From positions 868,001 to 932,000 of the forward strand of contig OZ374558.1 of NCBI GenBank assembly GCA_977862235.1: a stretch of DNA of 64,000 nucleotides. Direction: 5' to 3'. Shown here piece by piece: positions 10,471-41,645 of the stretch. This DNA comes from Dudresnaya verticillata (lineage: Eukaryota). The first letter of the stretch is position 1. Each line of letters opens with the position of its first letter. A program made the position numbers and the translations under genes. The notes beneath the pieces were generated by a model. It saw only the letters and a list, made by a program, of their open reading frames with translations, did no database searches and had not been told where the DNA came from.

Positions 10471-10504
10471 TCCCGTCTCGGAACCGTGCATGGCACGGGA
10501 GAGG

Positions 10505-11581: not shown

Positions 11582-13512
11582 TGTGGATTGACGGACGCGG
11601 AGTCGAATAGGGAGCCGTGTCCGGGATGTATCACGCGGGAGGTTAGACAAAGCCGTTGTAGTAGCTTGTACCAAGACGTCCCGGTCCAGTGTGGCACTAG
11701 AATGACCCCGTGTGCTTCCTCTGCTTCTATTTTCAAGAGCGTGAACGCGATGAGCTGAGGTGGGGGGTTCCAAAGACGACTCAGTCCGTCCCCCCAATAC
11801 TCCTGGAACTGTGCGCGTATGACCTTCGAGCGGGCCGCGGGGGCCTCCTTGAGTGGCCAGAAGCGCCGAACGCGCTGTAACTTGAGAGAGACTTCTAATG
11901 AGTGAAGTAACGAAGGGGTTGCGGCTAGATCCCGGCTGTCCCATGTGCGGCTCAGGCGGTCCGCGTGACGGTTCAAGGCGTACGGGATCCAAACCGCCTT
12001 GAGAGTCACCTTCATTTCCCGTAGGAGGTTGTGCAGGAGGCGTAGCTCTGGCATGAGTTCGGGGCTGGAAGAAACCATATTGTTGACGATATGGAACACC
12101 GACATATTGTCTACATGTAACCTGATCCTCCCTTGATGTCCGTGGAGCCGCGCGGGAACCAAGTCCTCTTCCAGTGTCCGCCGTACGGCCACGAGCTCCC
12201 TGTAGTTGATAGATTTCAACCTTAGGAAGGGGGACCACATCTGTCGCACATGCACCTCGCCATCCGCTCCAGCCGACAAGTCCCTCCCAAGGGTGCCACC
12301 AAATCCAACGTCCGAGGCATCCGTGTGGAGGTTCCAGGATTCCTGGCCCCCGTAAATAAGACGCCCATCGCCCACCAACATCTCGCTCCAGGCCTTTAAA
12401 TCTCTTAGGCCAGAATTGCTCAGACGAATTTTGCAGGATGGATATCTTCCAATGCGACGACGGTCCTGTAGTAGATCGTTGTATAAACCTCGAGTGAAGA
12501 AACGCGCCAGCGGAATTGGGGTTAGCTGCGAAACAGCCTTCCCTGTCAAAGTCCGGACTAGGGACTCCCGTACCCAGCGCTTGGACTTCGCAACAGTAGT
12601 GAGGGGGGCTTTGGACAAGTTCCGGAGCTTTCCAATCTTTTGGTCCGTAACGAAATATCGGAATTGCTCTGTGTCGATGACCACCCCCAGATGTTCTAGG
12701 CAAGTAGTACCTCGGCCCCAGACTCCTTTGTCTGGATGTCTTAGTAGTCCAAGCTTGAGAAATAACGAATCTAAGACCTCGCATAGCTCCATGCAATCCA
12801 TTTTGGTGCTTGGCGAGGTACCAACACCAGGGACCAGTAGATAGTCGTCGATCCATGTTAACACACGGCAGTTTAAAGCAGACCTGATGTATCTGGTTAA
12901 CGGGGCCAGCAGATGGCAAAACCAAAAAGGTGACCGTGTCCACCCGAAGGGAAGGGGATTACATCTGTAGAACTTGCCCTGATATCGAAATATAAAACAG
13001 TTCCACATCCGACTGTGCAGAACAAAATGGCGATACCCCCCTTTCCAGTCGAAGGAAAGCATATGGTCCCCAACCAGCAGGCAAGCCCCAAAGGCGGAAA
13101 GCGTCTCCATAAGCACTGACTTTTTGCACCAGTGGGTTGACTGCTTCTTTAAATTGATAATAAAGCGCCCCTTTCCTTGACTCCAGTCCACGAATGCTGA
13201 AGATACGTAGTTGCCTTTCGCCACTTGCTGCAGGGCGTAATCCTTTGTTATAGCCTGATACACTCCGGCGGCACAGCCTTCGTCTAGGTCCTTCGCAGCG
13301 AATTCTTTGTCGGTCGCATTCTGGGGAATCTCCGGAAGCATGACACCTTCTGTAAAGGGAACATCCGGGGGATCCCAGATTCCAAAGCATAAGCAGCGTA
13401 TTATGTACGCTGATGCCCCGATGGTACGCCAAGCCTCGGCATTTCTCCTTGTGAATGCCCATCTGGCGTGACGCCAAGTAGGTGGTCGGTGTGGTTCTGT
13501 GCTGTTCATCAT
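11479..13512 (-). CDS. pol: reverse transcriptase, RNase H and degenerate adenine-methylase-like domain (677 aa, open)
   Basis: GRFIINLK, SFDWKGGYRHF, LPFGWTRSP, WIDD, HLGVVID; RNase H HTDAS, INYREL, VDN, NRHADRLSR; C-terminal LWNPPP...LLKIEAEEAHGVILVPHW...WY. Confidence 0.93.
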   Translation of the reverse strand: MMNSTEPHRPPTWRHARWAFTRRNAEAWRTIGASAYIIRCLCFGIWDPPDVPFTEGVMLPEIPQNATDKEFAAKDLDEGCAAGVYQAITKDYALQQVAKGNYVSSAFVDWSQGKGRFIINLKKQSTHWCKKSVLMETLSAFGACLLVGDHMLSFDWKGGYRHFVLHSRMWNCFIFRYQGKFYRCNPLPFGWTRSPFWFCHLLAPLTRYIRSALNCRVLTWIDDYLLVPGVGTSPSTKMDCMELCEVLDSLFLKLGLLRHPDKGVWGRGTTCLEHLGVVIDTEQFRYFVTDQKIGKLRNLSKAPLTTVAKSKRWVRESLVRTLTGKAVSQLTPIPLARFFTRGLYNDLLQDRRRIGRYPSCKIRLSNSGLRDLKAWSEMLVGDGRLIYGGQESWNLHTDASDVGFGGTLGRDLSAGADGEVHVRQMWSPFLRLKSINYRELVAVRRTLEEDLVPARLHGHQGRIRLHVDNMSVFHIVNNMVSSSPELMPELRLLHNLLREMKVTLKAVWIPYALNRHADRLSRTWDSRDLAATPSLLHSLEVSLKLQRVRRFWPLKEAPAARSKVIRAQFQEYWGDGLSRLWNPPPQLIAFTLLKIEAEEAHGVILVPHWTGTSWYKLLQRLCLTSRVIHPGHGSLFDSASVNPQWAIEIAEVGRRPLSRSSLPSEIASLALGVDRPV

Positions 13513-14147
13513 TTCTTCGCGCCGCCCGCCTTGGGCGCATCGCGATCCTTTTCTGCGGACGGGTTGCTGTTGCCTGCCTTCGCAATACTCTTGGCAGCCT
13601 CAACAACGTACTTGGCAGACAGCTCTTTATATACGGAGGCATACATTTCGGATTGGACCTGCGCATGTTTTGCCTCAACTTTGGTTTCCACGAGTTCTGC
13701 AATCTGACTAGCCATAGCAGGACCTTTGGTGAGCACGGCGTAAAAATGGGAGGTACGCATAGCCAATACTTCCTTGCTGGCCAAGAGAGAGTCATACAGG
13801 ATCTGTAGCATCCTTCCTTGCTCGGCAGCGTCTCCAGAATCCTTGAATAAGTCAAATGCACAAAGACCCTGCTCAATCCAGGTCCCCGCACTGTGTACAT
13901 ACTCCAATTCTTTTCCATTTCTCCTATCCTTCCGGGTAGTGTCCCGATAGAGATTTGTATCGGGCTTAAAGTAGCTCGGCTGGTGCGGCTGCAGGAGTTC
14001 AGCGCGAGGCCATATAACTGAACGACCAGCAAGACTGCTGGCAAGAAGATGGTTGATGACCTTGCTGTAGTCCTCCGGACCGGCGTCCAGGATGTTCGTT
14101 GACTTGAACGGTGACTCAGCATTGTTATCAGTGGGTTCAATTGACAT
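13509..14147 (-). CDS. gag-like ORF1 of element A (212 aa from the first ATG after the repeat)
   Basis: Homologous to ORF1 of elements B, C and D (KELEYVHSAGTWIEQ, EVLAMRTSHF, ELSAKY); stop overlaps the pol ATG (ATGA). Confidence 0.8.
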   Translation of the reverse strand: MSIEPTDNNAESPFKSTNILDAGPEDYSKVINHLLASSLAGRSVIWPRAELLQPHQPSYFKPDTNLYRDTTRKDRRNGKELEYVHSAGTWIEQGLCAFDLFKDSGDAAEQGRMLQILYDSLLASKEVLAMRTSHFYAVLTKGPAMASQIAELVETKVEAKHAQVQSEMYASVYKELSAKYVVEAAKSIAKAGNSNPSAEKDRDAPKAGGAKK

Positions 14148-14201
14148 GCGGTTAGATACGTCCCCACCCGGAAAGCGAGTGTAACACCTTTCGACTCTTG
14201 A

Positions 14202-14526
14202 GGAAGAAAGGATAGACTTGCCGTCTCGTAGGGAGAGCGACCAGCGGTGGCTATATATACTGTAGCCGCCATGTGGGGAGAGACCCCGAGTTGCACTTCG
14301 CAGATTATGTTCCCATTGCAAGAACAATATGAACTTTGATCTTCCGGCGCGCGCATGCATCTGTTGGAGTCCTTCTGATTCTGCTTGCGACGGATGACAC
14401 AGATTCGTTGCAATTGAGTCCAAACTGGGAACGCAGCCTCATGCTACTCGATCGGGGTTTCGGACGCTCAGCCAAGTTCGCTATTCCCCGTAGTCATTAT
14501 CGTAAACCATTGACACCATATGAAAA
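14202..14526 (-). repeat. 5' copy (A1) of the element A terminal direct repeat
   Basis: Matches 10135-10470. Confidence 0.95.
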
Positions 14527-21126: not shown

Positions 21127-24100
21127 CTTTTCATTGTGTGTCAAACGCTTAGCTTTATATGGATGAAAAGACTCACTAGGGATAGTGAACGTTTCTGAGC
21201 GTCCCAAAGGAGTATCCTGGGTACTCTATATGGTTTGTAGAAATATGCCGCTGGGATTGATACACAATTTGTATGGTACCCAAATTGCAGGACACTGCAT
21301 TGGGTAATTACCAGAAATGGTATCCGCAACAGCGCCTCCCTCTATAGTTCCCTGGCAATACTCTACAGTGCCTATTGCACTGCCCTCGGGACTTCTGAAC
21401 GGTACTTAAGGGAGCGTGAAAGCGTTCCCTACAGAATACCGCAAGTTCATCCTTTCCCAAGAAGTTGGTAAAGGTGCTACGCTCATTTCGGAGTGGGAAC
21501 GTCTCAGACCGATGACCGAGAACTACGCCTTTTTACAGACAAAAATCAAGGATGCCGAACCCGAGGAGTACAGCAAGGTTCTTAATCACATCATGACCAA
21601 CAGTCTTGTTGGTCGTGCTCAGCTTTGGCCCCTGAGCGAGCTGGTCCAGCCGCACCACCCAAGTTATTTCAAGCCACAATCCAACTTCTATCGCGACACT
21701 CTTAAGAAACATCACCGGAATGGAGAGGAGCTCGAGTATATTCATAGCTCGGGCACCTGGTTGGAACAGTCGCTTGCCGCTCTGGAACTTTTCAGGTTGT
21801 GTACAAATCACTTTACGCACTTGAAAAGATCATATTGGGGACAGCGAGCAAGCCGAGCGTACTACAAATCAGAATGTACTGGACGCAGGCTGATTCTGGG
21901 TTGCACACTCGGGCTGGGTGGCAACTGCTGAGATTTGTTCCCCTGAGATCGGAAGCAATCCCGGTCTACTAGAGGAGCAGATGTTGGGCCACTTGAGCTG
22001 AGCCGCTAAGTTCTTTCCTTCGTTCTCATCCAGGTTGAGAACAAGGGATTTCCGTCGTTAGACAGGTGAACCACTGAAACCAAGGTCGGAACCCAACTCT
22101 TCCATATCTCCCCTTTCTATTTCGCCGGCAGACCCTACTGATTATGCTTCCCTTGTCAACCACCAGCTTGCTGCTGGTATGGTGGGGCGTAGGGCTTTAT
22201 GGCCTCGCTCAAGCCTCGTTCTTCCAAAAGAGGTCGGGTTCTTTAAGTCTGAGACTACTTTATATCTCGAGACTCATCGAAAGGACCGTCGCAACGCGAA
22301 AGAGCGCGAATATGTCCATTCGGCTGGTTGCTGGATTGAACAGTCCCTTGCCGCTCTCTCCCTACTGGTCAGCGAAACGGATACGGACAAACAGTCCCGC
22401 TTGCTCGGAATTCTCGAGGAGGGGCTCAATGGTGCGAGTGAGGTTCTCGCGATGCGTACCGCCCATTTCCAGACAGTACTAGCAAAGGGCCAGAGTCAGG
22501 CCAACCAGATTGCTGAACTTGTTGAAACCCGCGTCGAAGCGAAGCGGCATCAAGTCCCATCAGAAGCGTATGCAGATGTCTACCAGGAACTATCTGCAAA
22601 GTACGCCATCGAGACTGCAAAGAGCCTGGCGAAGGATGCTACCAACGGTAGCAAGAAGCCAGACCATAAGGGGTAATGTCACCGCGACAGAGCCCGGTTC
22701 AAGTTCACTGGGGCCAAGCCCGGTGGGCCGGAACTCGACGAAGAGCGCGGAATTGCGAGCAAATCCGCGCGTCCGCCTTTGTCATCCGCACTCTGATGTT
22801 CGGAGTGTGGGACCCTCCCCAGCGCCCGTTCACCACCGGACGGGAGCTTCCAGAGATCCCTCAAAGCCCAAAAGACCTCTCTTTTGGACGGAAGGAGCTG
22901 CGAGAGGGGTGTGACATCGGGACTTACCAACAGGTGAGTTCCGAGCATGCACAGAATCAACTCAAACGCGGCTTCCTAGTGTCAAGCTCTTTCGTGACCT
23001 GGCATCAGGAGAAGCCTCGATTCATCATAAATCTCAAAGAGTAGAGCACTCATTGGGACAAGAAATCTGCGCGCATGGAGACGCTATCCGCATTCGGGTC
23101 TTGCCTGTGTCCCGGGGACCACCTTTTGTCCTTCGACTGGTCCTCGGGATACAGGCATTTTGTACTACACCAGCGGATGTGGGACTGATTTCTATTTCGG
23201 TACGATGGTGGGTACTACCGTTGTATTGCTCTACCGTTCGGATGGACGGCATCACCATTCTGGTTTGTCAAGCTCCTAAGTCCTCTTGCCCGCTACATGC
23301 GCGACGAACTTTCTCTGCGCGTTTTAGTATGGTTGGACGACTATCTCATCGCACCAGGGGACGGAAGCAGACCCAGTACCGCATCAGACTGTGCAATGGT
23401 ATCGGAAAAGCTGGACCGTCTCTTCGAGAAATTAGGAATGGTACGACATCCGGCCAAGGGCGTGTGGGGAACCGGTACTACACGTATCGAGAATTTGGGT
23501 CTCGTCATAGATACTGTGTCGGTCAGGTATTTTATCTCCCCTCCCAAGCTCTTGCAGCTTCAGAAAATGGCCAGTTTGCTACTCAGGACGGCTCGGCAGA
23601 GAAGTCCCTGGGTTCGGGAGAATGTCTTGGAAAGCTTTTGCGGAAAGGCTTCTCTCAGCTTATTCCCCTTCCCCTTGCACGCTTCTTCACTCGCAGCTTG
23701 TACGACGCTCTGAAGGACGACGCGCAGCGACGTGGGCGCTACCCAGAGCGTACAGTGAAGCTGAGCCATGCGGGACTCAGGAACCTGCAATCTTGGGCAA
23801 CCATGTTGGCGGGCGACGGTCGGCTGATTGGCGGAGGCCAGCCGGCTTGGTGCCTGCACACCGATGCTGCCGATGTTGGCTACGGTGCAACGCTCGGACG
23901 CGATATGCAAGCCGGCTCGCCAGGGGAAATCGAGGTACAAGGCATCTGGTCCCCATTCCTCAGGCTAAGGTCTATTACTCTTCGGGAACTTATCGCTGTT
24001 CGCATGGCTCTACAAGACGCAATGGTACAGGCTCGCCTGTCGGGCGATCAGTCTATGCTGCTCCTACAGATAGACAATATGGCTGTCCTTCATATAATTT

Positions 24101-27100
24101 TGAACATGGTTTCCGCAAAGAGGGAACTTATGGAAGAACTCCGTCTGCTACACCGGTTGCTCGTCCAAATGAAGGTAACGATCCGAGCCGAATGGCTCCC
24201 CTTGGCTTTGAACCGACACGCGGACACGTTGAGCCGGACTTGGAACCCCAGAGACCTCCGGGTGACGCCCTTATTGCTGCAATCCGTCGCGACTTCGCTC
24301 CAATTACAAGTCGTGCGGCGTTACTGGCCTCTCGGGGAGGCCCCAATCGCCCGTCGCAAGGTAATAGTCGCCCAGTTCGGCGAGCACTGGGGCGACGGGA
24401 AGAGCCGGCTATGGAACTCCCCACCGCCATGGATCAACGCTACGCTTCTGAAAATCCGGGCGGAGGGCGCTCACGGCGTCATCTTGGTGCCCCACTGGAC
24501 GGGAGCGCCCTGGTTCGGCTTACTGTGTCAGCTATTGCTCAGCAGCCGCGTCATCAGCCACGCTCCCGGCCATCCGCTCTTTACTTCCGAACGCGCCAAC
24601 CCCGCTTGGGGACTACTATTGGCAGAAGTAGGGACACAGCTGGCCAAGCACTGCAACCGAGGATCGCTACTCTCGTCCCTTCCACCTCCGCGGGAAGAGC
24701 TGCGGTCACCTTAGCGGGGTACGGAGTGGCGCCCTCCACTGATCGGACGAAAACCAGTCAATGGCGGAAGTTCCAACGCTTTTGCGCGCGGAATGGCCAT
24801 CGCGACCTTCCGGCTCATGTGGGTACTGTGCTAGCGCACGTGGGATTCTTGTTCGAAGATCGTATACATGGACGTTCAGTATATCACTACATTTCGTCCA
24901 TCCGCACGATGCATAAGCGCCAAGGTCTTCAGGATCCACTCCATGGTAACCCTCACTCCGACCTCTTGCGCGCATTTCGCTATCAAGATGACCAGCGTGG
25001 CGAGCTTTCGGATGTTCGCGCAGCACTGCCAGCCGCAATTGTCTTCCGCATTCGACAGATGGGACTGCCAGCGCTTCCAGGTTCTCTCGAGGAACATCAG
25101 GCTGCGTTGGTGGAGTTCCAGTTCTTGATTTCGTGGAGAGAAAACTCCGTCCGTACAGTTCATGTTCAAGACGTCCATTGTGCTGTCAATGGTAACGCCA
25201 TCACTCTAACTGCTCGTTCGCGTTCGCTCAAAGGGCGACTGATCAGCGGTGTTGGCGCCTGCTCCCTGACCTGCAGGCATAGTCCACCTGCATTTGCCTC
25301 CAGAAACCCTCTGGCCCTACAGCGTCGATATTTTACTCTCCGTCAGCGTTCTTCAGATCCTGACGATCTCTACTGGGCGCACCCGGGCCTCGCGCTACGC
25401 CCTCAAGTTGTTTGAGCTGCCCTAGCGGCATGTATTACGGCTTTAAAAGTTGTTGCGCCTCCTTTCTCTTCATATACTTCGCACAGCCTTCGCAGTGGAA
25501 GTGTTACAGCGCAAGTCCTCCTTGGTGTACCACTTCCGGTTATCACTACTCCAGGGGCTGGCGTAGTAGCACTATGGTGGTCAACGTTTACTATGATTCA
25601 CGTCTGCACCTGTCGACGGAAATGAATCTTTACTTCTGGTCACTGCGGGAGCCTACCACATCCTCGTTCCCGTCCCCTCCGTAAGCTTCGCAGGATCAAG
25701 GTACTGTCCTCGCTCCGGTACCGGATTTTCAGGTTGTGTACAAATCACTTTACGCACTTGAAAAGATCATATTGGGGACAGCGAGCAAGCCGAGCGTACT
25801 ACAAATCAGAATGTACTGGACGCAGGCTGATTCTGGGTTGCACACTCAGGCTGGGTGGCAACTGCTGAGATTTGTTCCCCTGAGATCGGAAGCAATCCCG
25901 GTCTACTAGGGGAGCAGATGTTGTGCCACCTGAGCCGAGCCGCTAAGTTCTTTCCTTCGTTCTCCCACCCACCCTCCCACGCTCTTTTCCTTCAAATTCT
26001 TTCCTTCGTTTATTACCACTTCACAATACGAAGAAGTGTTCTAGTCTCTATCTTCTACATTCTACTGGCATACAAGCCACTTTGGGTTAGTCATTGTTTT
26101 GGTGATTACTACTTCCTCCGAATAAAGTAATCATTTCCTTTTCAAGTCCAGTTCAGATGCACAGGAGCAAGGTCGCTTGCTTTCCATCCTCGAGGAGTCA
26201 ATCCGCGCCAGCAAGGAGATCCTCGCAATGCGTACATCGCACTTTCATGCGATTCCCACGAAAGGCCCTGCTCATGCCGCCTCCTTGTCGATCTCGTCGA
26301 GTCCAAGGTCGAGGGAAAGCATTCTCAAGATCCTTCCTCCATTTATGCCGACGTCTACACGGAGCGCGCTGCAAAGTATGTCAACAAGGCGGTTCAAGGA
26401 ATTGCTCGTAACACGGTCTCATCCAAGGAGGGTGGGTTCGGCCAATAATGGACACGCACGGGCAATCACGCCCAGGTTCCTGGTCACAGGCACGTTGGGC
26501 ATTTACTGCGAGACAAGCCAAGGAATGGTCCCGCATTGGAGCATCCTGTTTCGTTACCCGGATGTTAACTTTTGGAATTTGGGATCCTCCGCAACGGCCA
26601 TTCTTGGAAGGCGCGGTACTGCCTACCATACCACAATCAAAGGAGGATCTAGAATTTGCAAGATCGGAGTTGGGGGAAGGATTCCGTGTTGGTACGTACC
26701 AAATAGTTTCCGAAGCGTATGCAAGGGAAAGGGTGCGCCGAGGTTGCTACGTTTCCTCCGCCTTTGTCGAATGGGGCTCTGGCAAAGGACGCTTCGTAAT
26801 CAACCTAAAGCGGCAATCCTCCGATTAGGACAAAAGGTCTGTTGCTATGGAATCCCTCGGTTTATTTGCTTCTTGCCTGGTGCCAGGAGATCACATCCTG
26901 TCATTCGACTGGAAAAGTGACTATCGCCATTTCAGACTCCACTCCCGCATGTGGGATTGGTTCTTGTTTCGCTACGACGGCCACTTTTATCGCTGTATTG
27001 CTCTATCGTTTGGCTGGACGAGGTCTCCGTACTGGTTTTGTCACCTTTTAAGTCCACTAACAAGGTACATGCGCTCCGCATTACAGTGCCGAGTACTCCA

Positions 27101-28790
27101 ATGGATATACGATTATCTCTTGGTCCCCGGCATCGGTCCTTCTCCAAGTATTGCTACAAACTGTCAAGATATCGCATCGATATTGGATGCACTTTTCCAA
27201 CGACTGGGTTTGTAGAGACATCCAGAAAAATGTGTTTGGGGATATGGTGCCACCCGCATCTCACACTTAGGAGTAACAATAGACACCGAAGCATTCCGGT
27301 ATTTTGTAACCGAAGAGAAGCTGAGCAAACTTCAAGATCATGCATTAGCTTTGCTGAAAGCAGCCTCCGAAGGTTCGCGGTGGGTACGGGAGCGGTCTCT
27401 AGCAGAATATACAGGCCGGGCTATCTCACAACTACTCCCCATTCCACTCGCCCGGTTTTTCACGCGTGGCTTGTACGACGATATGAAAAATGCAAACCTC
27501 GGGGTGGAAAGTACCCGGAGCACAGTGTACGGTTATCAAACGCTGTGGTACGCGATCTCAAGTCCTGGAAGCACATGCTTCAAGGAGACGGCAGATTGAT
27601 AGGCGGCGGCACTCCAAATTGGAATCTGCACACCGACGCTGCCGACTTCGGATTTGGGGGAACCTTAGGGAGAGATATGGCGGCCGGTTCCCCCGGAGAA
27701 GTGGAGGTGCAAGGCGTGTGTTCTCCATTATTGCGCTTGAAATCGATCACCAACCGAGCGTTATTGGCGGTTCGTCTCGCGCTGCAGTCCGACCTCGTAA
27801 AAGCTCGAGTCTCCGGTTCCCACGCCAAGCTTCTCCTGTACGTAGACAACATGGCCGTCTTTTATATTATCAACAACATGGTTTCTAGTGCACCGGAACT
27901 AATGGACGATCTACGGGCACTTCACCAAGTTCTGCACGATATGAAAGTCACAATACGCGCTGTATGGCTTCCTTCGGCTGTCAACAAGCATGCGGATCGC
28001 CTCAGCCGAACATGGAATCCGAAGGACTTAAAGGCGACTCCTTCACTGATGCAATCGTTGCAGGAATCCTTGCAGCTTCAGCGGGTGCGGCGGTTTTGGC
28101 CACTAGGGGACGCTCCGGCGGCTCGAGCGACGGTCATGAAGGCGCCATATGGCGGTGTTCTGGAGAGACGGTTGCAGCCGGCTCTGGAATCCTCCCCCAG
28201 TGGATCACAACCACACTCCTGAAGATAGAAGCAGAACAGGCTCACGGCGTTGTGGTGGTTCCACACTGGACGGGAGCCAGCTGGTACAATCTGTTGCGTC
28301 GCGTTTGCCTATCGTCACGCGTGGTACGATCTACAGAGGGTCCCCTCTTTGACTCCGCATCCGTGCACCCCACTTGGGATCTCGAGCTGGTAGAAGTCGG
28401 ACCCAGCACAGGATGCAGTCCAAACTTCAATCGAAGCTCAGCTCCCTCAAGATTCCATTGCGCGTGCCAGCCGAGGACTAGCAGCGTCTGCCATTGCCTC
28501 CTCAACAGGAGCTGCGAAATCAAGCCAGTGGAAGAAATTTGCTTTGTTCTGTTTAGAGTAAGATCTCACGGCGCTCCCTGCAGCACATGGATCCATCCTC
28601 GCATATGTCGGATTCCTATTCGAGGAAGGTCGTGTACATGGGACCTCTATTGACCATTATCTCTCGGCTATTCGTACGCGTCACACCCGTGACGGCTTTC
28701 AAGATCCGTGTCAAGGCCCTGCCCTGCAGGACCTTTTGCGGGCGTTCAAGCGGGAGGATGACGGGCGAGGAACTCTACAGGATGTTCAGG
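21127..28790 (+). mobile_element. DIRS/PAT-like element 'C', degraded, split in gag by element B and truncated in YR
   Basis: Starts CTTTTCATTGTGTGTCAA; gag ...EQSLAALELF (21794) resumes KSSSDAQEQGRLLSILEE at 26145; pol 26448-28480 with frameshifts; YR N-terminus to ~28790. Confidence 0.88.
21788..26144 (+). mobile_element. Full-length but decayed DIRS/PAT-like element 'B' nested in the gag of element C
   Basis: 239-bp direct repeats 21789-22027 and 25726-25964; gag to 22676; pol 22676-24714 (WLDD, HTDAA, LWNSPP); YR ~24600-25684 (SWRE, HSLRSG); CTTTTCA at both ends (21788-21794, 26138-26144); AATAAA at 26121. Confidence 0.92.
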
Positions 28791-28991
28791 ATGCGGGGGA
28801 AAGTGTTGAGGCTGCTCGAGGCGGCCGCCGGGGTCGGGGCGGCAGGGAACGCGGTCGGGGCAGACGAGGGAGGGGGCGGGGAGGCCGGGGAGGCCGTGGA
28901 GGTCGCGGAGGTCGCGGAGGGCGTCGTAGCGTCTACAACTATGATGACCCATCAAAAGGCTGGAGGCTTCACTCGCCCAGCCAGGGCATAG

Positions 28992-29405
28992 TGTAAGGAA
29001 GTACCTTTTAGGTCTCTTGTGAACTTAAAAAGTGCACTCAATGAGAAAGCCACAGAGCGGGTACCTGGTAGCGGTGTTAGAGCGGGAGGAGCCCAGAGGG
29101 TAGACGAGGGCACGTAACTTGATAGGAAGCACGATACTGAAGGTATTTCACTGGGCGGGCGGTTAACCGGGCACGGGTGACAGGTGTGCTGCGGTGCCGA
29201 GAGCTTGGAGATGTAGTTGGGGCCGGAAGGTGCTTTCCTTTACTGTACAGTGACCGCTACGGGAGATACCCTTATATGGTACTCCGACTGTCAGGTAGCA
29301 CCCCTCATACTGGGCTATATACAGGCCCCCTATCCTACGCTATAATTTCTAAAATAAATAGACAGATACTAAGCTACTGACCTACAGGGAGACACTTGGA
29401 CCAAT
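28992..29405 (+). mobile_element. Solo-LTR-like insertion in the piggyBac-like ORF
   Basis: TGTAAG...CCTACA (to 29386) plus 19 bp; 5-bp TSD CATAG; TATA-like CTATATA and AATAAA on +; removal rejoins the RGG frame to ORF 29596-30333. Confidence 0.7.
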
Positions 29406-30886
29406 CATAGACTACCCGTCATGTCCCTGTTGGCGTCCTATAGGTAACGCTATTTCAGCGCATACACGAGGGCAGAGGGCCCACTTCTGTAAGCCCTTCA
29501 CTGTATTACACATAGCTCTTGAGCAGGACTTTTCAAATACTGTTATCGCAGAGAGCGCAAGGCTATTCTGCTCCTCTGATCTTTCCTGGCTTGACGTGGA
29601 GATGCGCGCAGGCAATGTTAACGACAGAAAGGTGGGTATCATGGTGCTCATCATGGAGGAGGCACTTCAGCTTTGTCTAAAATGGCTGAACGGGCACATC
29701 GCCTTGCATGATCCTGGTAGGAGGCCTGTGGGGATGCCAGACATGTATCGGTATGTCGCCGTTATGCTTTTATCACACCTGTGCGGGATTACCCTGGAGA
29801 AGGCGCTGGATGTTCTCCCTCGATTGGACTGCAATTTGCCTCCAGCCGACAGAATTTGGTTCATAAGCCAGAACATTCTCGCGTACCCTGCGACGGGCCG
29901 CGGTAATATGGGGGACGAGGTCTGGAGCTCGCAAAGGGACGCTACGTCGCGTCTGGACCCGTTTGAGAAGACGGCTTCCCACATGTCTCGGAACATCTTT
30001 TTAACTCCTGCCCACACAATTGTGACGCTTGATGACGATCTTTATGGCACGCGCTCGAAAGACAACCAAGTTAAGACCTTGAGCGCTCGGAAGGCGGACC
30101 GGGAGGGTCACGCGGCCGATGTCGTATCGGATGCGCTTTTCCAGCTGACGTATGCGGTGAGATTCCGGCGGAGAGGGCAGTCGCAGTCTGATAATGTGGA
30201 GAAACTTCTCGACGTCTTAATGGAAGGAAGCGGGAGCACTCAATTCATGGTATGGTGGCTACAGCTGACCGCGGCTACGGCTCTATGTCACTATTGCGGA
30301 GTATGCTTCGTCTCGGAGTGGGGGCAATTCTAATTATGCCTCAGCATCTACTGCGGTGCCATCCCTTTGTCGGCGCTTCTCATTTCTCGGTGACAAGAGT
30401 GGACGACAACGAAGATGTACCTCCGAATGGCAGGGAGGAGGAAGGAGGGGTTGAGAGCGAGACGTCGAGCAGTGACGAGCCTGACAGCGGCCCGCAGCTT
30501 TCGAGCGCGTATCCCACTGACGCGGCAGATCGGGAACCGGAGCCTGTGAACGACGGCGAGAATACGCTGGCACGTCTTCCGGCCGCTGTGTATGACCAAA
30601 AGGCTGCATTTGTCGTGAGGGATGAGCCCGGCGTCGGCTTCGGAAGCTTCTTTGCGAAGCGGAGCTTGAAGCTATCCGCGGGTGGTGGGCCAGCCAATGG
30701 CGTCGCAAAGAGGTCGCAGGTGATGGCGGTCGCAGTTCGAGAGCGTGGTACGCCCCATTTCAGCAAAGTGTTGAGGTTTTTGTACCCTACCCCGTCATCT
30801 TTATCCAAATCAATCGAGACTTGGTTCGCTGTTTCGCGCAGCCACGCGCACGAGAAAGAGCTACTATTCGCAAAGACTCTCGGTTA

Positions 30887-30976
30887 AGCCGCATCTGATC
30901 CCTTGGCGGACGCAAGCAGTCCGAGAGCAGGAGCCGCATCTGATCCCTTGGCGGACGCAAGCAGTCCGAGAGCAGG
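30887..30976. repeat. 45-bp tandem duplication
   Basis: AGCCGCATCTGATCCCTTGGCGGACGCAAGCAGTCCGAGAGCAGG twice. Confidence 0.95.
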
Positions 30977-33200
30977 TATTGAGAGCACGGTACTCAGAAA
31001 CTGTACTGTGCCTACAAAAGGGCAGAGGTGCGCAGATTGGTTCATCATGCGACAATTCCGCGTTATAGGCACCATCCCTGGCAGGATTATGCTCGCCGAT
31101 AACAATGTCCGAGTACTGCTGGGATACCCGCCGCATCCTGACCCACCCCCGGATGAGACGGCGATGCTCAAGGCCTTAGTGCAGTCATGGTTCTCCGGAG
31201 CAAGATCCACCGAGGCGATGATGCGCGGAACCGCGAATGCGTCTGACGTTCTCGGAGCTGTATGCAACAAAGATTTTATCGTGGCCGCGTTCAAGTGTGG
31301 AATGGTAGCGCGGAAAGACGCCGACTGGCTGGCCTGTTCACCGGATGCTGTGGCGCTTATTGACGCGAACGCGCTCGGTCTGTCGGACAGCAGCGAGCCT
31401 CAGCTTGCATCTGTGGAGATTAAGACACGTGGAGCAGCTTCAAGCTCGGAAAGATATCTTTCCAATACGACGACGGATGTGAAGACCTGTGTGGTCGGCG
31501 ATGCAGACTTTCAGAATCTAATTCCCCGCAAGCACTGTGGACAGCTACTGCAGCAGGCCGTTGTGTTGTCTGCTGAGTACGTCGTTTACATAGCGGCAGG
31601 AGAGACAGGAATTTTATTCGCCGCTGTGGTCAAAGTTGCGACGGCCGTTTCTGAGCAGTGTCTGGTCACGCTGAATCTAGGTGCAGTGCAGGCAGTGTCG
31701 TGGGCGCACTGCAGCGATGCGAGCGTCCCAGCATTCGCAGACTCGGACTCACGTCGTGTAATTCAGGAGCGTCTGTCGTTTTGGAAGGTCGTCAATACCT
31801 GCGTGAAGGAAAATGGGCCACTTCCGCCACTCAAGCTGTTCAAGCACGGTTCTCAATCTCTGTACTCAAAAACCAAAGGTGGGGTTGACGGCGGCACTCA
31901 ATACCGCGCCACACTGCGCTCGTCATCGTCCGTCCTGAATTGGGAGCAGAAACTAGTATCTCAGACTCTCAAGAATTTGGCCGTGAATGCTTTCATCTCG
32001 TGGCGAATGCGCCAGCGGAGTGATCTTCTGGAAAGCATGCACACGTTTGGTGGAGTTGACAAGTTCCGAACTGCTCTGAACAAGGTTCAGTCCCTCGGAG
32101 ACTTCATCTTTAAAGTCTGTCCCGAGCTGTTGCGGCACGCGGGCCGAATCGCAACAGAGAGAGATGCGTCAGAGACCCCAACGCTGAGACGGTCGACCTC
32201 GATAACGCGACAGGAGCCCGCTTGCTGAAGCTGGACAACAGCGAAAAGGAAATCGCGTTGAATTCTTCAACACGAAAGACGGCATGACGATCCGCCTGGC
32301 GATGCAGCCACACTTGCAAAGATTTGTCAAGAAAAGGAGCACTGCGCACTATACGGCTCAGGGCCGGAGAGACGTCGAAGCGAAGTCATGTGCAGTACAT
32401 ATAACGTTCACCTTTGCGTACGCGTGGCGAAAGATAAGCGGAAATCGTGTTGGACAAAATGGCACGAGACCAGACGCCTCGAGGCAGGGTGATCCGACGC
32501 GTCTCCTCGCGTGGAGAATCGTAGCCGTAGAGTTGAGAATCCTCTTCCATGCGCCAGCCCAGGGGCAAAGACTCGAAGCGGAGGCCGCGGAGGAGCTTCT
32601 TCTGTTAGAGCTCCGGAAACTGCCGCTGAGACTCAGCCTGCTGTAACACCTGTCCCTGCTCCAAAGCGAAGACGCATAGGTGTCGTGCGTCGCGCATCAC
32701 TATCTAACCATGCACGCCGCGGAGGAGCTTCTTCTGGCAGAGCTCCTGAAAACGCAGATGAAATTGAGCCTGTCCCAGCTCAAACGCGCCGTCGCGCAAG
32801 TGTCGGGCGTCGTGCGACGTTATCTCACCGTAAAGGTCAGGAAGGAGCTCCTTCTGGCAGGGATACTGATACGGACGAGATTGGGCAAGACCGAACTCAA
32901 GAGCGCAAGAGAGTAGGCGCACAAGTCGCGTCGGCGAGTCCTACGTCTTTATCTGAGTTTTTAAAGTGTGCCAGCGGTTGTGGGTGCGATCCCCAGCTAT
33001 CCCAAGTGGATGCTGCTCACAAGTGTGAGAAGTGCGGACAGCCGGTGCATGGATTTTGCATTCGCGCACCTGATGGCTCCATAGGCAGTGAGAAGTACGA
33101 GGGGTCTGGAATGGGGGGATTCTGCAAGCCGTGCTCGCTGCAGGCGACTCCTACAACTCAATGACACACTTTACCTAGTAAGCAGACCCAAAGCAACCTG

Positions 33201-33428
33201 AAATGGACACTGTAGTGTCCATTTGGCCAAATTTGCCTTTCCTGATACCCAAATAGCTCCAACCTCGAAGCGATCGTAGAGCAGGTAAACGTTTCCCATA
33301 CGGCCTGAAAATTGGTCCAGTGATAGGTGTACACATCTGCAGTATCATACGTGAAGCATATGGTCGCCGTGGTAGATCTCGCTGAACTACACACTCTCAA
33401 AGGTCAATGGACACTACAGTGTACATTT
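33201..33428. repeat. Pair of self-palindromic ~27-bp motifs in inverted orientation; candidate transposon end or MITE
   Basis: AAATGGACACTGTAGTGTCCATTTGGCC (33201-33228) and GGTCAATGGACACTACAGTGTACATTT (33402-33428). Confidence 0.7.
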
Positions 33429-33639
33429 TTACTCGGTATTAGGGATATGACCTCCATACTATGATGCTCCATACGTTCTCCAAATAGGTAAAAAACAGTA
33501 TCTAACTGCGCCTCCCAGACGACAACTCCAAATATCCTCCATTTAACTTTTCCGTGCTCCACAATCCTCCAATTATCCTCTATATTCTCCACGTAGCCTC
33601 CAAAAGCCAGGATAATGTCCGCTAGGGGAAGCACGGGGC

Positions 33640-35699: not shown

Positions 35700-36856
35700 T
35701 CACGAGTAACATTGCTGCGATGTCATAAGCCCTACCGGCGACTCGTGGACCTTAAGCTTCCGCTTGAAACCTACCGATGTCCTGTACAGTTTATCTCCTT
35801 GTAAAGACACTCAACCGTGACACGCCCGGAACTCATTGCCGTGTTTACAGCGCCTTGCTCTGCCGAAAGTGTGGCACCTTGATACGGAACCTCCAGAAAA
35901 GGGCGCGAGTTGTAGCCGCTGTCCCCATAGAGGCAGTACTGGATGAGGTTGACCAGTAGCGATGATTCAAGCACGTCGTCTTCATTGGCGGAACTATACA
36001 AGTACCAGCCGTGGCGCCTTCCTTCTACTGGCCCGAACGCATGCAGCACGTAACCATCAGGTGTTCTTATGGTCTGAAACTTTAAGCAGTGCAATCGTTT
36101 GTGTCCATTGTAGGCCACGTTCTACGCCACGTTTCCGGCTGGTCGCACAATCCCTATCCTTGTCCCGTCTATGAAACCCACGAATTTTTCGAGAGCAACT
36201 GTCTTGTCCTTGACCGCCTTAGCGTACACTTCTGCTCTCTCCTCCTTCAACGCAAGAGGGATTTTTCTTGATAGTGGATGACCATAGTTGCTCGAAAAAG
36301 CACGTAACGTTTGCCAGAAGATCTCTGACATGTGTGAGGGCTGCTTACCGAACAATTCGATTATATCTCCCCATCTGCTAGGCGATGCAAGCCTACGGAG
36401 GAGCATACAAGTGCTTAACAACGGTGTAGTACCATAAGCGTTTCTGTTGATACGCACGTCCTGAAGCCTAAGATAAGGAACGAGGCGGATGATGTCTCGT
36501 CTGGAGAACCGAAACTGCTCCAACGACTGCTGTTCGGTCATGCGCTCGAACGATACGTCGAAGGATAGGCATGAGATGCGCCACGTCGGCAAATTGCGTA
36601 GGCTAAGTGCCTTCCTCTCCTCCACGGCCGACACAGCAGCCCGATACAGATCGACTCGGCATCGTTTGCGGTACCTGCGGCGGCTCAACACGCTGACAAG
36701 TGCGTGTGAGGTCCTCATGCGCCGCACATGAAGATGACTAGCGCAGCCCTTCTGACGATGGATCGCCATCTCTGCCGTCCATGCGCGATCACGCTTGCCG
36801 AAAGGTGGGCGGGCGGGGACGCGGTAACGGGCAGTGGAGCTGTTTATGAGCCTCAC
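35700..36856 (-). pseudogene. PIF/Harbinger-type (DDE_Tnp_4-like) transposase with disablements
   Basis: HTH region LRRLASPSRW.D...FG; GFIDGTRIGIVRP; YNGHKRLHCLKFQ...PDG; GPVEGRRH; LYGDSGY; NTAMSSGRVTVE. Confidence 0.88.
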
Positions 36857-36899
36857 ACTGTAATACTCCCACCATAGTCCAGATTCAAAACCGTAATCT

Positions 36900-37850
36900 T
36901 TATCAGTGCAGCGTGGCCAATGCGGTGACAGAAAAGCGGTCGGGCAAACTTTTTCTCACAAGTTCTTTTTCTGTGCAGTTACTCTTTCGTACCGTAAGCT
37001 CTCTAGTATGTAAACAGATATCATAAACGTTGCCTAGTACTTCCAAAACTGAAGCTCGCACTTCGGCTTTGTGGTGATTGTGTACAATCACAAAGGATGT
37101 GGAACTCAGAGTGTTTGTACGCGAATAGTTTCTATACATAAGGCATCTGGGATCCTCCACTTTCCATAACAAACCGTTTTTCATTGAGGGGAGGATGCGT
37201 GGAGGATTTCTGGAGATAAATAGCGTAGTTGGGGAAATACAAAAATAGTTACAGTGTAAGAGAGCTCCCCATTCTGTGAATTTGAAAGGAGGATTGCAAG
37301 TGCCTTTCGGGAAGCTTGTGGGGTATAATTGGCAGTAATATGAGGTACAGGAGGAGGATGCTCTCACAGTCCTCTACGCATCCCCCGAATTGTCTTCTAC
37401 GGAATAGCAACCACGTATGCATGCTGCAACGCTTTAGAGAGGTGAATGGACTGCCATCCTGGTAGGGAAGATATTCTAACAGGGTTCTATTACGATTCAA
37501 CCCGGGCTGACTGTATGCGTACCGATGCCACCACATGCGCACTATCCCCGCTCAGAAAACATCCGCCCACTGGCTTAGTAGGTAACGAATCGGGAGAGGC
37601 AATGAAGATTTGCATGGAATTAAGCGCATGGAGCACTCGTAGGAAACATTTTAGGCCGCACGTTGAGGACAATGATACATCCTCCTCCCGCAGTATATCC
37701 GCCCTCCAAATATTCCGTGCACCTCCTCCAAATTTGCTTCGTATCGTCCTCTAGATTTCCGCAAATTGTACGCCATCTTATACTGTAATTTTTCGTGTAT
37801 GTCTTCAATGCAGTCCTGAAAATGCGCTATGTATTTTCATTTATCCTCCG
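36900..37850 (-). mobile_element. Possible degraded copia RNase H relic
   Basis: Weak motifs FGGCVED, TEWGAL, GNVYDI; heavily frameshifted. Confidence 0.25.
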
Positions 37851-38029: not shown

Positions 38030-40408
38030 AAGGACCAGGCCCAGATGGTGTGGTCACGGAAATGCTCGCACTGTGTCCCAAAGCAACAACCAAGTTATTT
38101 GTTGCCCTATGGACAGCAATCGGCCGAGTCGGTTACTTACCGAAGATCCTAAGTACGGGTGTGCTCGTCCCTCTCTACAGAAAAGGAGAAGCCACCCAAG
38201 CGAGAAACTACCGCCCGGTTTCGCTCCTCTTGCATACACGGAAGGTGCTCTCATCTGCCTAGACCAAGCGCTCAGGTCGGAATATGACTGTCACCCCAGA
38301 AAATGGGGGTTCGTCCAGGGCTCGAGCACAGAAGCGTCCATTGCACATGTAACCGCTATCCAGGAGGACGAACACCGCCATGTGACGGTGTTTGACCTCC
38401 GGGGCGCATACGACACCGTCCCCCGCCACAGACTTATGGCACTATGCCGACAACACCTGTGAACCGATTTTTGTAGGATCTCTGGAGCACCACCAAGTGC
38501 GGCGGCCAAAGGAGACCCCAAGAAGACCACAATTACCTGTCGGATTTCACCAAAAACTGGCCAGAACGTTGAACGGACCTGCGCACCGGTAGCAAGCGTG
38601 GTAGAGCGGGAGCGCGCAGACGAAGTCGTGGCCAAAACCTGCGATGAGGACAGAAAATGGCCAAGTCGCGGGTTTAGTTGCTAACTTTACTCCCAACCTC
38701 TGGCGGGACGGCTTCGTACCTTTTTCGGCTATGCCGTAGTATGTGGCCAGCTAAGTAGTCCCAAAATCGGCCATCTGAGCTAATCTAGAGCTATTCTACA
38801 GTTAGTGGCCGAGGCTACTCCTCGTTAGCTATAATATCCACTTGTGTTCCCACGTCGGGCCAATGTGGGGCCCCTATGAGACTAAACCAAGTACTTGTCT
38901 GTTAGTGACTGGCCGAACCAGTTAGATTTTCTCTTGATTTTTCCACTGTCTTCCCTTGATTTCGTTTTGCGGCCAAATCCAATTTCCTTTCGCATCTGGC
39001 CTTCTATCAGATCACACGTGTGCAACGTGCTACGTGGTGTGTCTTGGCTTAGTAGGTGGCCACGTGTGCGCCAGTTGTAGGTGGCCACGTATGCGCCACG
39101 TGTACACTTGGCGGCCGCGTTTTAGGTTTGCGCACTCACCGTCGTCCGTGGGCCGGTGTTGTGGCTCCATTGGTCAAGTGTCTTCTGTTCGTTGGGCCGA
39201 TCGCTCGCTGGGCCCACTGTGTTGCTTCCATTCAGTGGCCCCCTTCGCGTTGCACTACAATTTTGGCAGAAATGGTCCAGACGCTATTGACTATGATTGC
39301 CACAACGACCCAAGGGGAACCACCAAGCGCTACACCTGCACACATCACCGTGGGCGTGCCGCAGGGGGATATCCCGAGCCCCATGCTCTTCAACATTTTC
39401 ATCGACCCGTTGTTTCAACGGCTCGAGTCCATCCCATCAAGCTTATCCGCCGCGCCCGCCAATGGTGTCGCGGATGATGTACTACTCCTGGCCCGTAGCC
39501 CCGAGGGCCTCCGTTGGTTACTCAGCGAGGGTACAACCTGTGCAAAAGACGAGGCAATGGAATGGGCACCACAAAAGTGCCAGGCCGTACTGTCTTACCC
39601 CACAAAGGAACAGTATACAATCGCAGGGGCGGGAATCCAGACTGTATAATCGGCTACATATCTCGGAGTGTGCCTCTCGTCTTTTGGCGTTCTCGCAGAA
39701 GGGACCCTACCCCGCATAGCAAAAGCAACTATATGCCTCAGGAGCATCCGACGCTACATGGAACCTACATGGCAACTCCCCCTCGAGCTACGCCGCGCAG
39801 TAGCCACCACCATCTTGCTTCCAGTCATTGGCTGCGGTGCACATCTCACTCCTGTAATCCATGACATACAGGCAGCAGCCGAACAGTTCGAGTCAGTCCT
39901 GCTCCCATGGGTGCTTGGAGTACGCCGTGACCGCCCAACGCGCGACAACGCCCGCATGCGGCTACTGACCCGCATCAATAGTTTCACCCAACGGCGCAAC
40001 ACCGTCATGGGGACTAGAACACTCAAGTTATGCCAACGTGCGGTACCCCTGCTCCCGCCCTTACAGCTGAATCGAGCCAAGCAAACAAACCTGGACCGAC
40101 TGCAGGACGCTCCCGGGGCGCGAATAGTCCTGCCCCAGATCCGACAGCCGGTATCAGCACAAGCCACCCTCGCCGCCATACAAGATTGGCACCGGACACA
40201 ATGGCAGAAAATGGCAACACAGGTAAACGCACACCGCGCTCGGCTCATACCTGCCGATGACCGCCGACGTGGACCACCCTGCATGCAGTCGTCAAGCCGT
40301 AACCAGGCAACTCACCTAGCCATACTCTGTTACATCCACCGGCTTCCACGGCGCAACCACGCACGCCTAAGAGAAACACTGACTACAGAATGGAAAAGGC
40401 TTCTGTAG
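38030..40408 (+). mobile_element. 5'-truncated LINE, RT region, split by a solo LTR
   Basis: GPDGVVTEML, VPLYRKG...NYRPVSLL, FDLRGAYDTV, GVPQGDIPSPMLFNIFID, ADD, YLGV. Confidence 0.9.
38472..39259. mobile_element. Solo LTR family A, copy 1
   Basis: TGTAG...CTACA; 5-bp TSD ATTTT (38467-38471, 39260-39264). Confidence 0.92.
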
Positions 40409-40862
40409 ATGCACAAATGGGGTGACCCACAGGCGGACGTGACCCGATTCCACACGTTAGCCGACGCAGTCACCCGACGGACCGACACCCCTGACCCAGG
40501 CCTCCCGCGCAAACCTGGACACACTCTCCAACGACGCGGATGACACCCCACGCAGTGATACAAGCCCACTGCAGGCCGGTTAATTCAACCGCGCCCGCTA
40601 CCACTGCTGACCCACCAGCGCACACCAACCAACGGCCACCCAACCGGTCGAAACGGTTGGACACCAGCCACCAGCTGACCCTACCAAGGTCAAAACTAGC
40701 CCGCCACGCGCACCACACGCGACACAAGTAAGGCCGCAGGCTACGACAACCGACCCCACTGCAGGGCAAACGGCAAAAGGAACTCAAACCACCGCCGACA
40801 CCCTACCACAGCAAACAACACCGTCATAGGACCGGTGACCGCCCCAGCAAGCAGGCCCCAAC

Positions 40863-41645
40863 TGTAGTATCTCTAAAGCACCACCGCGTACGGCGGGCAA
40901 ACGAGACCCCAAGAAAACCCAAAAGACCTGTCGGATTTCGTAGAAACTGGCCAACTGTAGAACGGACCTGCGCGCCGGTAGCAAGCGTGGTAGAGCGGGA
41001 GCGCGCAGACGAAGTCGTGACCAAAATCTGTGATGAGGACAGAAAATGGCCAAGTCGGGGGTTGAGTTGCTAAGTTTACTCCCAACCTCTGGCGGGACGG
41101 CTTCGTGCCTGTGTTGGCTGAGCCGAGGTGTGTGACCGTCTAAGTAGACCCAAAATCGGCCATCTGAGCTATTCTAAGGCTATTCTACAGTTAGTGGCCG
41201 AGGTTACTCACCATGGCCCAAACTATCTTCTCGAATCCTGGCTTCGGGCCAATATTAGAGCCCTACCGAATTAAATCGAGTACTTGCCAGTTGATCAGTG
41301 GTCGTATGAGTTAGATTTCCCCTCGATTTTTCCGTGCTTGATTCCTTGATATGGTATTGCGGCCAAATCCTTTTCCGTAATCCGATCTCGTTTCGATCCC
41401 GATTAGCGTATCCAGATTGTTCCGATCGTCCAGATATGATAATTTTTCTTTGCGCTGGCCACGTGGTTGACACGTACACGCGTGTGACCCACGTGTCACG
41501 CTTGTGGCTCCTTACCGGCGTCCAACGCCGTCCGCGCGGCCGTACAGTAGCAACTTGGGCCAAGTGTCTTCTGTGAGTTGGCCAATTCGGGTGCGTGGCC
41601 CAGTCGACAGGCTTGTTTTCGGAGGCCCCTTGCCGTTGCACCACC
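40863..41645. mobile_element. Solo LTR family A, copy 2
   Basis: TGTAGTATCTC...TTGCACCACC; TSD CCAAC (40858-40862, 41646-41650). Confidence 0.9.

What the first reader, a model, noticed from the sequence alone, without database searches (positions are those of the whole stretch)
28790..33164. piggyBac-like transposase with a phage-type YqaJ/lambda exonuclease inserted inside its catalytic triad
Seen: the motif order is RGG tract - D1 (TLDDD) - D2 (ADRGY) - acidic linker - YqaJ-like PD-(D/E)XK nuclease (QR..DW...R, MMRG, LACSPD, VEIKT, Q..QQ) - D3 (YSKTKGGVD..TQ) - piggyBac-type Cys-rich domain - three RGGASS-like repeats - second Cys/His finger. The exonuclease and D3 lie in one uninterrupted ORF (30903-32228), which argues for a true domain insertion rather than adjacent TEs. 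Known: canonical piggyBac has no accessory nuclease, and YqaJ/lambda exonucleases resect DNA 5'->3' for single-strand annealing. Inference: a cut-and-paste enzyme that resects its own breaks or donor site. From memory, and unverified, divergent piggyBac groups from red algae/oomycetes and YqaJ-carrying Kolobok/ISL2EU elements exist, so novelty must be checked.
Basis: partly seen in the sequence, partly recalled or inferred. Interest (0 to 1): 0.85.

Follow-up and report, generated by a model that had tools for sequence, protein, structure and literature searches.

The report
PiggyBac-like transposon with nested exonuclease
This is a broken copy of a jumping gene, likely from a red alga, whose intact relatives are predicted to fold like the piggyBac transposase but carry a second, phage-lambda-type DNA-chewing domain inside the catalytic core, which would likely let the element chew back the DNA break it leaves behind.

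Summary
Observation confirmed, with corrected coordinates. The window holds a dead copy (about 28789-33444) of a real transposon family. Intact relatives are single ORFs of about 1,000-1,300 aa. A model of one relative matches piggyBac transposase over residues 82-951 (Z 22.6) and whole lambda exonuclease over 555-821 (Z 15.6), nested between D2 and D3. Of 49 non-redundant relatives, 43 keep both the DDD triad and the nuclease catalytic set. I found no complete nuclease-free relative. The insert is a 519-bp solo LTR (28992-29510). The left end is lost in a fusion to a DIRS recombinase. One frameshift is shared by most sister copies (unexplained). Most likely role, inferred and untested: 5'-to-3' resection of the donor break. 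Precedents exist (Dada, KolobokE, ISL2EU), and the group may be Repbase piggyBacX (recalled, not checkable here). This scan noted the same architecture on other DNA at least six times. Verdict: new variant of a known kind.

The parts
28789..28991 (+). Remaining 5' part of the transposase gene (RGG-rich tract, DPSKGW motif); start codon, 5' UTR and left TIR are missing
   Evidence: tblastn to P0001/P0006/P0008; sister contig X1 record 2 aligns from 28789; no left TIR in window
28562..28788 (+). N-terminal part of a DIRS-type tyrosine recombinase ORF, cut off and fused in frame to the RGG tract (not part of the transposon)
   Evidence: 58-63% identical to two fuller DIRS recombinase copies in the window; homology ends at junction residue 76-78
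28992..29510 (.). 519-bp solo LTR-like insertion (TG..CA) with CATAG duplication at 28987-28991 and 29511-29515
   Evidence: sequence; 524-base skip in contigs of 3 of 4 runs
29511..30234 (+). Dimerisation/DNA-binding helices, D1 (TLDDD 30025-30039) and omega-loop equivalent
   Evidence: profile positions 117-284 align to T. ni piggyBac 139-307 including D268
30234..30884 (+). D2 (ADRGY 30264-30278), acidic disordered linker, three-stranded insertion domain; reached by a -1 frame switch at a G-run near 30231
30885..30976 (+). Stop codon (30885-30887) and 45-bp tandem duplication (30887-30931 / 30932-30976)
   Evidence: duplication absent from contigs of 4 of 4 runs
30963..31815 (+). Lambda/YqaJ-type PD-(D/E)XK exonuclease domain (approximate limits); this copy has lost the conserved motif Glu (GTANA) and one phosphate-pocket Thr
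   Evidence: model residues 555-821 vs lambda exonuclease 1avq Z 15.6, LHK-Exo Z 14.1; Pfam YqaJ in relatives; conservation
31816..32175 (+). D3 (YSKTKGGVD 31863-31889) and second half of the DNA-binding/dimerisation domain
   Evidence: aligns to T. ni piggyBac 437-509 including D447
32176..32489 (+). Linker with three frame switches (about 32175, 32234, 32330) and piggyBac-type Cys-rich domain (32340-32465), degraded
   Evidence: Cys-rich domain aligns to piggyBat 514-576
32493..33164 (+). Low-complexity tail with RGGASS-like repeats and a second Cys/His finger, a subfamily feature
   Evidence: D4, D6; weak Znf_SCAND3 match in the window and in 3 of 29 relatives
33201..33224 (.). Inner subterminal palindrome
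   Evidence: 4 matches, 0.06 expected
33406..33444 (.). Outer palindrome (33406-33427) and right terminus ending in GGG
   Evidence: same end design in L001, L002, L005, L007 and (CTC for CCC) L004
33445..33448 (.). ATAT, inferred target-site duplication
   Evidence: sister contigs in X1 and X4 end at 33448; two copies of a related family stop being alike right after GGGATAT

Best explanation
This is a dead copy of a piggyBac-related cut-and-paste transposon whose intact relatives keep both a DDD transposase site and a nested lambda-type exonuclease site; the transposase likely excises by piggyBac-style hairpin chemistry and inserts at ATAT, and the exonuclease would most likely chew back the 5'-phosphorylated donor-site ends left after excision. 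Shown: domain order, joint conservation of both sites, end structure, decay of this copy. Predicted: the fold. Inferred: hairpin chemistry (most hairpin-contacting residues kept) and ATAT as target duplication. Inferred and untested: resection removes the self-complementary 4-base overhangs that let canonical piggyBac donor sites rejoin seamlessly, so repair is pushed towards copying from the sister chromatid or homologue, which restores the element and raises copy number. My odds: architecture 0.97, nuclease active in intact members 0.85, donor-end resection as its job about 0.4.
For: 29 long relatives at 37-58% identity. The profile hits piggyBac 6x67 (E 7e-14) on both sides of a stretch that hits LHK-Exo 3syy (E 0.002). 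Model of P0002, pLDDT 77: 6x67 Z 22.6, rmsd 4.8, 379 aligned; 1avq Z 15.6, rmsd 3.3, 205 of 228 aligned. Of 49 non-redundant relatives, 46 keep DDD, 45 keep the nuclease W/E/D/E/K set, 43 keep both. The 5'-phosphate pocket of LHK-Exo (Arg12, Thr17, Ser19, Ser100; PMC3239189 passages) maps to R/K 49, T/S 49, T 48 and S 48 of 49. PiggyBac hairpin contacts (PMC7351741 passages): R275 kept in 44, K290 as K/R in 42, Y439 in 48 of 49. The domain sits at the end of the insertion domain, which in piggyBac lines the channel for target DNA. Trees of the two domains show no strongly supported conflict.
Against: No activity, expression or footprint data. Lambda and LHK exonucleases are processive as trimers, whereas piggyBac is a dimer, so long resection is doubtful; whether the nested domain oligomerises is untested. 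Y283, which stacks on the hairpin and target base, is aromatic in only 2 of 49, and N440 is Ser in 35 of 49, so the hairpin pathway may have changed. Model confidence is low exactly at D3 (853-856) and the omega loop (250-261). Relatives were mostly found with queries containing the nuclease, so the co-conservation count is biased. No empty site was seen, so ATAT could be part of the TIR.
Confidence: 0.45

Rival explanations
1. The nuclease works on the transposon ends rather than the donor: it trims the 4-base 5' overhang after hairpin opening, or cleans the integration intermediate.
For: A one- or two-copy, non-toroidal domain suits short trimming. After hairpin opening the element's overhang also carries a 5' phosphate (own knowledge of piggyBac chemistry). 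The phosphate pocket is conserved.
Against: Canonical piggyBac integrates without such trimming, using the overhang to complete the target duplication (own knowledge; structure passages), so the gain is unclear.
Confidence: 0.2
2. The nuclease cuts the non-transferred strand, as TnsA does for Tn7, and replaces the hairpin step.
For: TnsA is a restriction-type nuclease paired with a DDE transposase (PMC3627910 passage). The Y283 equivalent is lost. No nuclease-free complete relative was found, as expected for an essential function.
Against: The conserved 5'-phosphate pocket marks an end-loading exonuclease rather than an endonuclease. Equivalents of R275, K290 and Y439 are kept, although these also serve target binding.
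Confidence: 0.2
3. The nuclease has a role outside the transposition chemistry, such as destroying competing or excised linear DNA or promoting single-strand annealing between copies.
For: Lambda-family enzymes serve recombination and DNA degradation in phages and large viruses (fold neighbours). The function of the YqaJ ORF of ISL2EU is stated to be unknown.
Against: It is embedded in the catalytic core beside the target channel and kept there across red algal, rhizarian, labyrinthulid and other hosts.
Confidence: 0.1
4. The arrangement is an accident: two nested elements, or a catalytically dead passenger domain.
For: The window is dense in nested, decayed elements, and this copy's own nuclease is mutated.
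Against: Dozens of intact single-ORF relatives down to about 21-28% identity share the layout and both active sites.
Confidence: 0.02

Closest known systems
piggyBac (T. ni, PDB 6x67) and piggyBat (9c0f); Pfam DDE_Tnp_1_7
   Same: Fold over nearly the whole solved chain, DDD triad, GGVD motif, three-stranded insertion domain, C-terminal Cys-rich domain, CCC termini, palindromic 4-base AT target, subterminal palindromes.
   Different: D2-D3 spacing about 440-680 aa against 101; nested exonuclease and acidic linker; ATAT instead of TTAA; 11-16% structural identity; only 2 of 29 relatives pass the Pfam cut-off.
Repbase/Dfam 'piggyBacX / PiggyBac-X' group (recalled; label seen once, in a Plasmodiophora paper)
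   Same: I recall it as a divergent piggyBac-like group from red algae such as Chondrus; this family occurs in Chondrus, Gracilariopsis and Plasmodiophora.
   Different: Could not be compared: no definition, sequence or domain description was available.
Lambda exonuclease / LHK-Exo / YqaJ (PF09588)
   Same: Whole fold (Z 14-15.6), PD-(D/E)XK residues, 5'-phosphate pocket, N-terminal Trp.
   Different: Embedded in a transposase; no partner annealing protein; oligomeric state unknown.
Dada elements of Laccaria and Ectocarpus (PMC3706591)
   Same: An exonuclease inserted after the second catalytic Asp, proposed to process cleaved ends.
   Different: DEDDy 3'-5' nuclease and a different transposase superfamily.
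KolobokE (PMC9587614) and ISL2EU (PMC4122938, PMC4482050)
   Same: Eukaryotic DDE transposons with a lambda/YqaJ-type nuclease of unknown role.
   Different: [quoted passage not shown]

Membership tests
piggyBac superfamily | RNase H-like core with DDD triad equivalent to D268/D346/D447 | tested here: met
   D1 and D3 align to D268 and D447; D2 by motif and model; 46 of 49 keep all three
piggyBac superfamily | piggyBac fold with dimerisation/DNA-binding domain and beta-stranded insertion domain | tested here: met
   6x67 Z 22.6, well above Tn5 at Z 13.9; predicted model of a relative
piggyBac superfamily | C-terminal Cys-rich domain | tested here: met
   degraded in the window copy
piggyBac superfamily | TIRs starting CC(C/T) | tested here: met
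   CCC at 7 termini (window right, L001 x2, L002, L005 x2, L007), CTC in L004
piggyBac superfamily | TTAA target-site duplication | tested here: not met
   ATAT at all 8 termini recognised; no terminus was recognised in 9 of 14 loci
piggyBac superfamily | Hairpin intermediate and seamless excision | not testable with these tools
   only residue conservation, which is mixed
Repbase piggyBacX | Sequence match to the Repbase entries, termini and TSD as defined there | not testable with these tools
   Repbase and the review that I recall defining it are not held
lambda exonuclease / YqaJ family | PD-(D/E)XK catalytic residues and fold | tested here: met
   (YqaJ listed in 25 of 29, above cut-off in 9)
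lambda exonuclease / YqaJ family | 5'-phosphate pocket | tested here: met
lambda exonuclease / YqaJ family | Toroidal trimer and processive 5'-3' digestion | not tested
KolobokE / ISL2EU / Dada | Their transposase signatures (C/DxxH, THAP, second ORF) and nuclease position or type | tested here: not met
   single ORF with piggyBac fold and internal PD-(D/E)XK domain against the descriptions

The most novel reading that the evidence does not exclude
An undescribed, ancient sister lineage of piggyBac, spread across red algae, rhizarians, stramenopiles and other protists, targets ATAT and carries an obligatory resection nuclease inside its catalytic core. It abandons seamless excision and forces homology-directed restoration of the donor, making cut-and-paste effectively replicative. 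A slippery G-run between D1 and D2 may also ration the full enzyme against a short DNA-binding repressor.
Probability: 0.25. Interest if true: 0.82.

Novelty: new variant of a known kind. Interest (0 to 1): 0.6.

Why it matters
Several eukaryotic transposon groups carry lambda/YqaJ-type nucleases whose role is stated to be unknown. Here such a nuclease sits inside a piggyBac chassis whose chemistry, structure and assays are well established, so one point mutant can ask what it does. It also offers natural piggyBac-fold enzymes with a different target (ATAT) and possibly built-in break resection, which is relevant to genome engineering and to how cut-and-paste elements gain copies.

Tried and rejected
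No host genome is held, so copy number and empty sites could not be examined. Pfam on the window's own pieces: no YqaJ or DDE hit; PHROGs also none for the window ORF, though a RecE-like exonuclease family hits 6 of 6 relatives. An apparent TIR pair CCCTAGCGG at 25420 / 33627 was rejected: the left arm lies inside another DIRS recombinase ORF. No left TIR in the window. No relatives in viral contigs. No RNA holder listed. Nuclease-free relatives: none among 41 hits of 433-2372 aa whose search words came from the first 500 residues, before the nuclease, and none of 120 of 129 short hits reaches D3; these searches did not retrieve canonical piggyBacs, so sensitivity is limited. P0019 lacks the middle of the nuclease, possibly a gene-model artefact. 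Trimer prediction, the Atlas search and a fold of the window's own ORF were not available. Literature searches found no description of a piggyBac with an internal YqaJ domain. Repbase Reports and the Kojima review on eukaryotic TE diversity are not held, and the supplement of PMC5381638, which lists Chondrus and Phytophthora piggyBac-like elements and rare ATAT sites, could not be read; these may already name the family.
Full report
Observation. The region is a colinear, decayed match to intact protein P0001. The window pieces alone hit neither YqaJ nor DDE_Tnp_1_7 in Pfam, so identity was established through relatives.

State of this copy. It is dead. A 519-bp TG..CA insertion at 28992-29510 with a CATAG duplication interrupts the 5' part, and contigs from 3 of 4 public runs skip it. 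Frames switch near 30231, 32175, 32234 and 32330. Stops lie at 30885 and 32490, and a 45-bp duplication at 30887-30976 is absent from contigs of all 4 runs. The nuclease has lost a conserved Glu and Thr, and the Cys-rich domain has lost cysteines. On the left, the gene is fused at about 28789 to the first half of a DIRS tyrosine recombinase, and no left TIR exists in the window. A deletion joining the two elements is the simplest reading (inference).

The family. The nuclease-D3 ORF finds 29 proteins of 804-1301 aa at 37-58% identity, and 988 cluster representatives at E up to 0.001, of which 150 were listed. Named hosts are Gracilariopsis chorda, Chondrus crispus, Plasmodiophora brassicae, Spongospora subterranea, Hondaea fermentalgiana and a record labelled Durusdinium; a truncated Cyclotella protein also hits. 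The host of this window is likely a red alga, inferred only from the nearest named relatives. Fourteen metagenome loci encode distant members at 23-38% identity; all with a long enough ORF show the same motif order.

Architecture. A profile of 25 diverse members hits T. ni piggyBac (E 7e-14) in two stretches, 139-307 with D268 and 437-509 with D447, and piggyBat. The stretch between them hits LHK-Exo and mimivirus R354 weakly. An AlphaFold model of P0002 (mean pLDDT 77, pTM 0.71) aligns to 6x67 over residues 82-951 (Z 22.6, rmsd 4.8, 379 aligned) and to lambda exonuclease over 555-821 (Z 15.6, rmsd 3.3, 205 of 228). After D2 the model shows the fifth strand, a disordered acidic linker, three long strands like piggyBac's insertion domain (372-433 in PMC7351741, passages), then the nuclease, then the D3 helices. 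The model is of a relative, not of the window's copy, and is uncertain at D3 and the omega loop.

Conservation. Of 87 aligned rows, 58 span D1, D2 and D3, and 49 remain below 90% identity. Of these 46 keep DDD, 45 keep the nuclease W/E/D/E/K set and 43 keep both; the 5'-phosphate pocket described for LHK-Exo (PMC3239189, passages) is kept in 48-49. Mean identity in the nuclease (0.34) is like that of the transposase core (0.37-0.40). Trees of the two parts share 19 of 46 splits, with no conflict between strongly supported splits. This fits one old acquisition, but kinship alone gives such agreement. Most rows were found with nuclease-bearing queries. Two searches seeded from the N-terminal half found no complete nuclease-free relative.

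Ends. Relatives L001, L002, L005 and L007 end in ATAT|CCC, and L004 in ATAT|CTC, followed by a short spacer and 21-29-bp palindromes; no end was recognised in the other 9 loci. L005 and L007, 88% identical, stop being alike exactly after GGGATAT. The window has the same design: palindromes at 33201-33224 and 33406-33427 (4 matches, 0.06 expected), GGG ending at 33444, then ATAT. Sister contigs in two runs end at 33448. ATAT is most likely the target duplication, but no empty site was seen.

Unexplained. The -1 frame near 30231, at a G-run between D1 and D2, is not private to this copy. Contigs in X1, X2, X5 and an about 81%-identical contig in X3 have no gap there, while two other X3 contigs are in frame. 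Database protein P0204, 93% identical, ends with the same shifted tail. More distant intact relatives are in frame. The lengths of two contigs suggest the shift near 32330 is shared too. A defective lineage amplified in trans, or recurrent slippage, is likelier than programmed frameshifting, but I could not separate them.

Mechanism. PiggyBac excises through a hairpin held by R275, Y283, K290, Y439 and N440. The family keeps R275 (44 of 49), K290 as K/R (42) and Y439 (48), but not Y283 (aliphatic in 43), and N440 is mostly Ser. The Y283 change could follow from the changed last target base (inference). Excision leaves 5'-phosphorylated 4-base overhangs on the donor flanks (own knowledge), the kind of end that lambda-type exonucleases load on, and the domain is attached where piggyBac contacts target DNA. 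I therefore favour donor-end resection that biases repair to templated restoration (about 0.4), over trimming of element ends (0.2), a TnsA-like second-strand cut (0.2) or an unrelated role (0.1). The main objection is that processive lambda-type enzymes are trimers and piggyBac is a dimer.

Prior knowledge. Seen as passages only: Dada elements with a DEDDy exonuclease between D2 and DxxH (PMC3706591); KolobokE with a lambda-like nuclease downstream (PMC9587614); ISL2EU with a YqaJ second ORF of unknown function (PMC4122938, PMC4482050); a mention of DEDDh nucleases in P and piggyBac (PMC3627910; the meeting report PMC3520738 does not mention piggyBac); rare ATAT sites and Chondrus/Phytophthora piggyBac-like elements (PMC5381638; supplement unreadable); and the label DNA/PiggyBac-X in Plasmodiophora (bioRxiv 10.1101/2025.07.30.667784). 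PMC6431247 and PMC12477816 held nothing relevant. Ten searches found no description of this architecture. I recall a Repbase group piggyBacX from red algae; this comes from no call, and I put about 0.65 on this family being that group, with the nuclease perhaps noted there. This scan recorded the same architecture on other DNA in at least six notes; they are not independent support.

Verdict. Real, well supported and widespread. It works like a piggyBac by fold but fails the TTAA criterion, so I file it as piggyBac-related rather than canonical. New variant of a known kind; interest 0.6.

Noticed in passing
window 30225-30240: The -1 frame switch at a G-run between D1 and D2 is shared by most sister contigs in four runs, including one about 81% identical, while two contigs are in frame. 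Defective lineage, slippage hot spot or programmed shift.
   Followed up: partly
window 10135-14526 (-), 21500-25964 (+), 25726-28788 (+), and fragments near 855-992 and 7800-8500: At least three DIRS-type retrotransposons (RT, RNase H, tyrosine recombinase), 60-70% alike, two of them in tandem with a shared 239-bp repeat (21789-22027 / 25726-25964).
   Followed up: partly
window 52525-52627: 76% match over 104 bp to the solo LTR inside the transposase.
   Followed up: no
window 35771-36955 (-): Harbinger/DDE_Tnp_4-type transposase in two frames (E 1.7e-10).
   Followed up: no
window 38472-39255, 40860-41524, 59677-60435, 63347-63998: Four copies of a 500-780-bp repeat, 75-81% alike, near LINE-like ORF fragments; not identified.
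   Followed up: no
window 5918-5989: Near-perfect 72-bp palindrome inside a long DnaJ-domain ORF (4820-6910, -).
   Followed up: no
window 32716-33448, runs X1 and X3: Contig depth over the 3' end is several times that of the coding middle, and X3 contigs join the RGG region to the 3' tail across 2.8-4 kb gaps, suggesting internally deleted non-autonomous derivatives.
   Followed up: no
P0188: A family member with an added C-terminal OTU-like peptidase stretch (weak Pfam, E 0.009).
   Followed up: no
L005:4687-10081: An apparently complete 5.4-kb element with both ends, ATAT on both sides and an open 1,355-codon frame; a good candidate for assays.
   Followed up: partly
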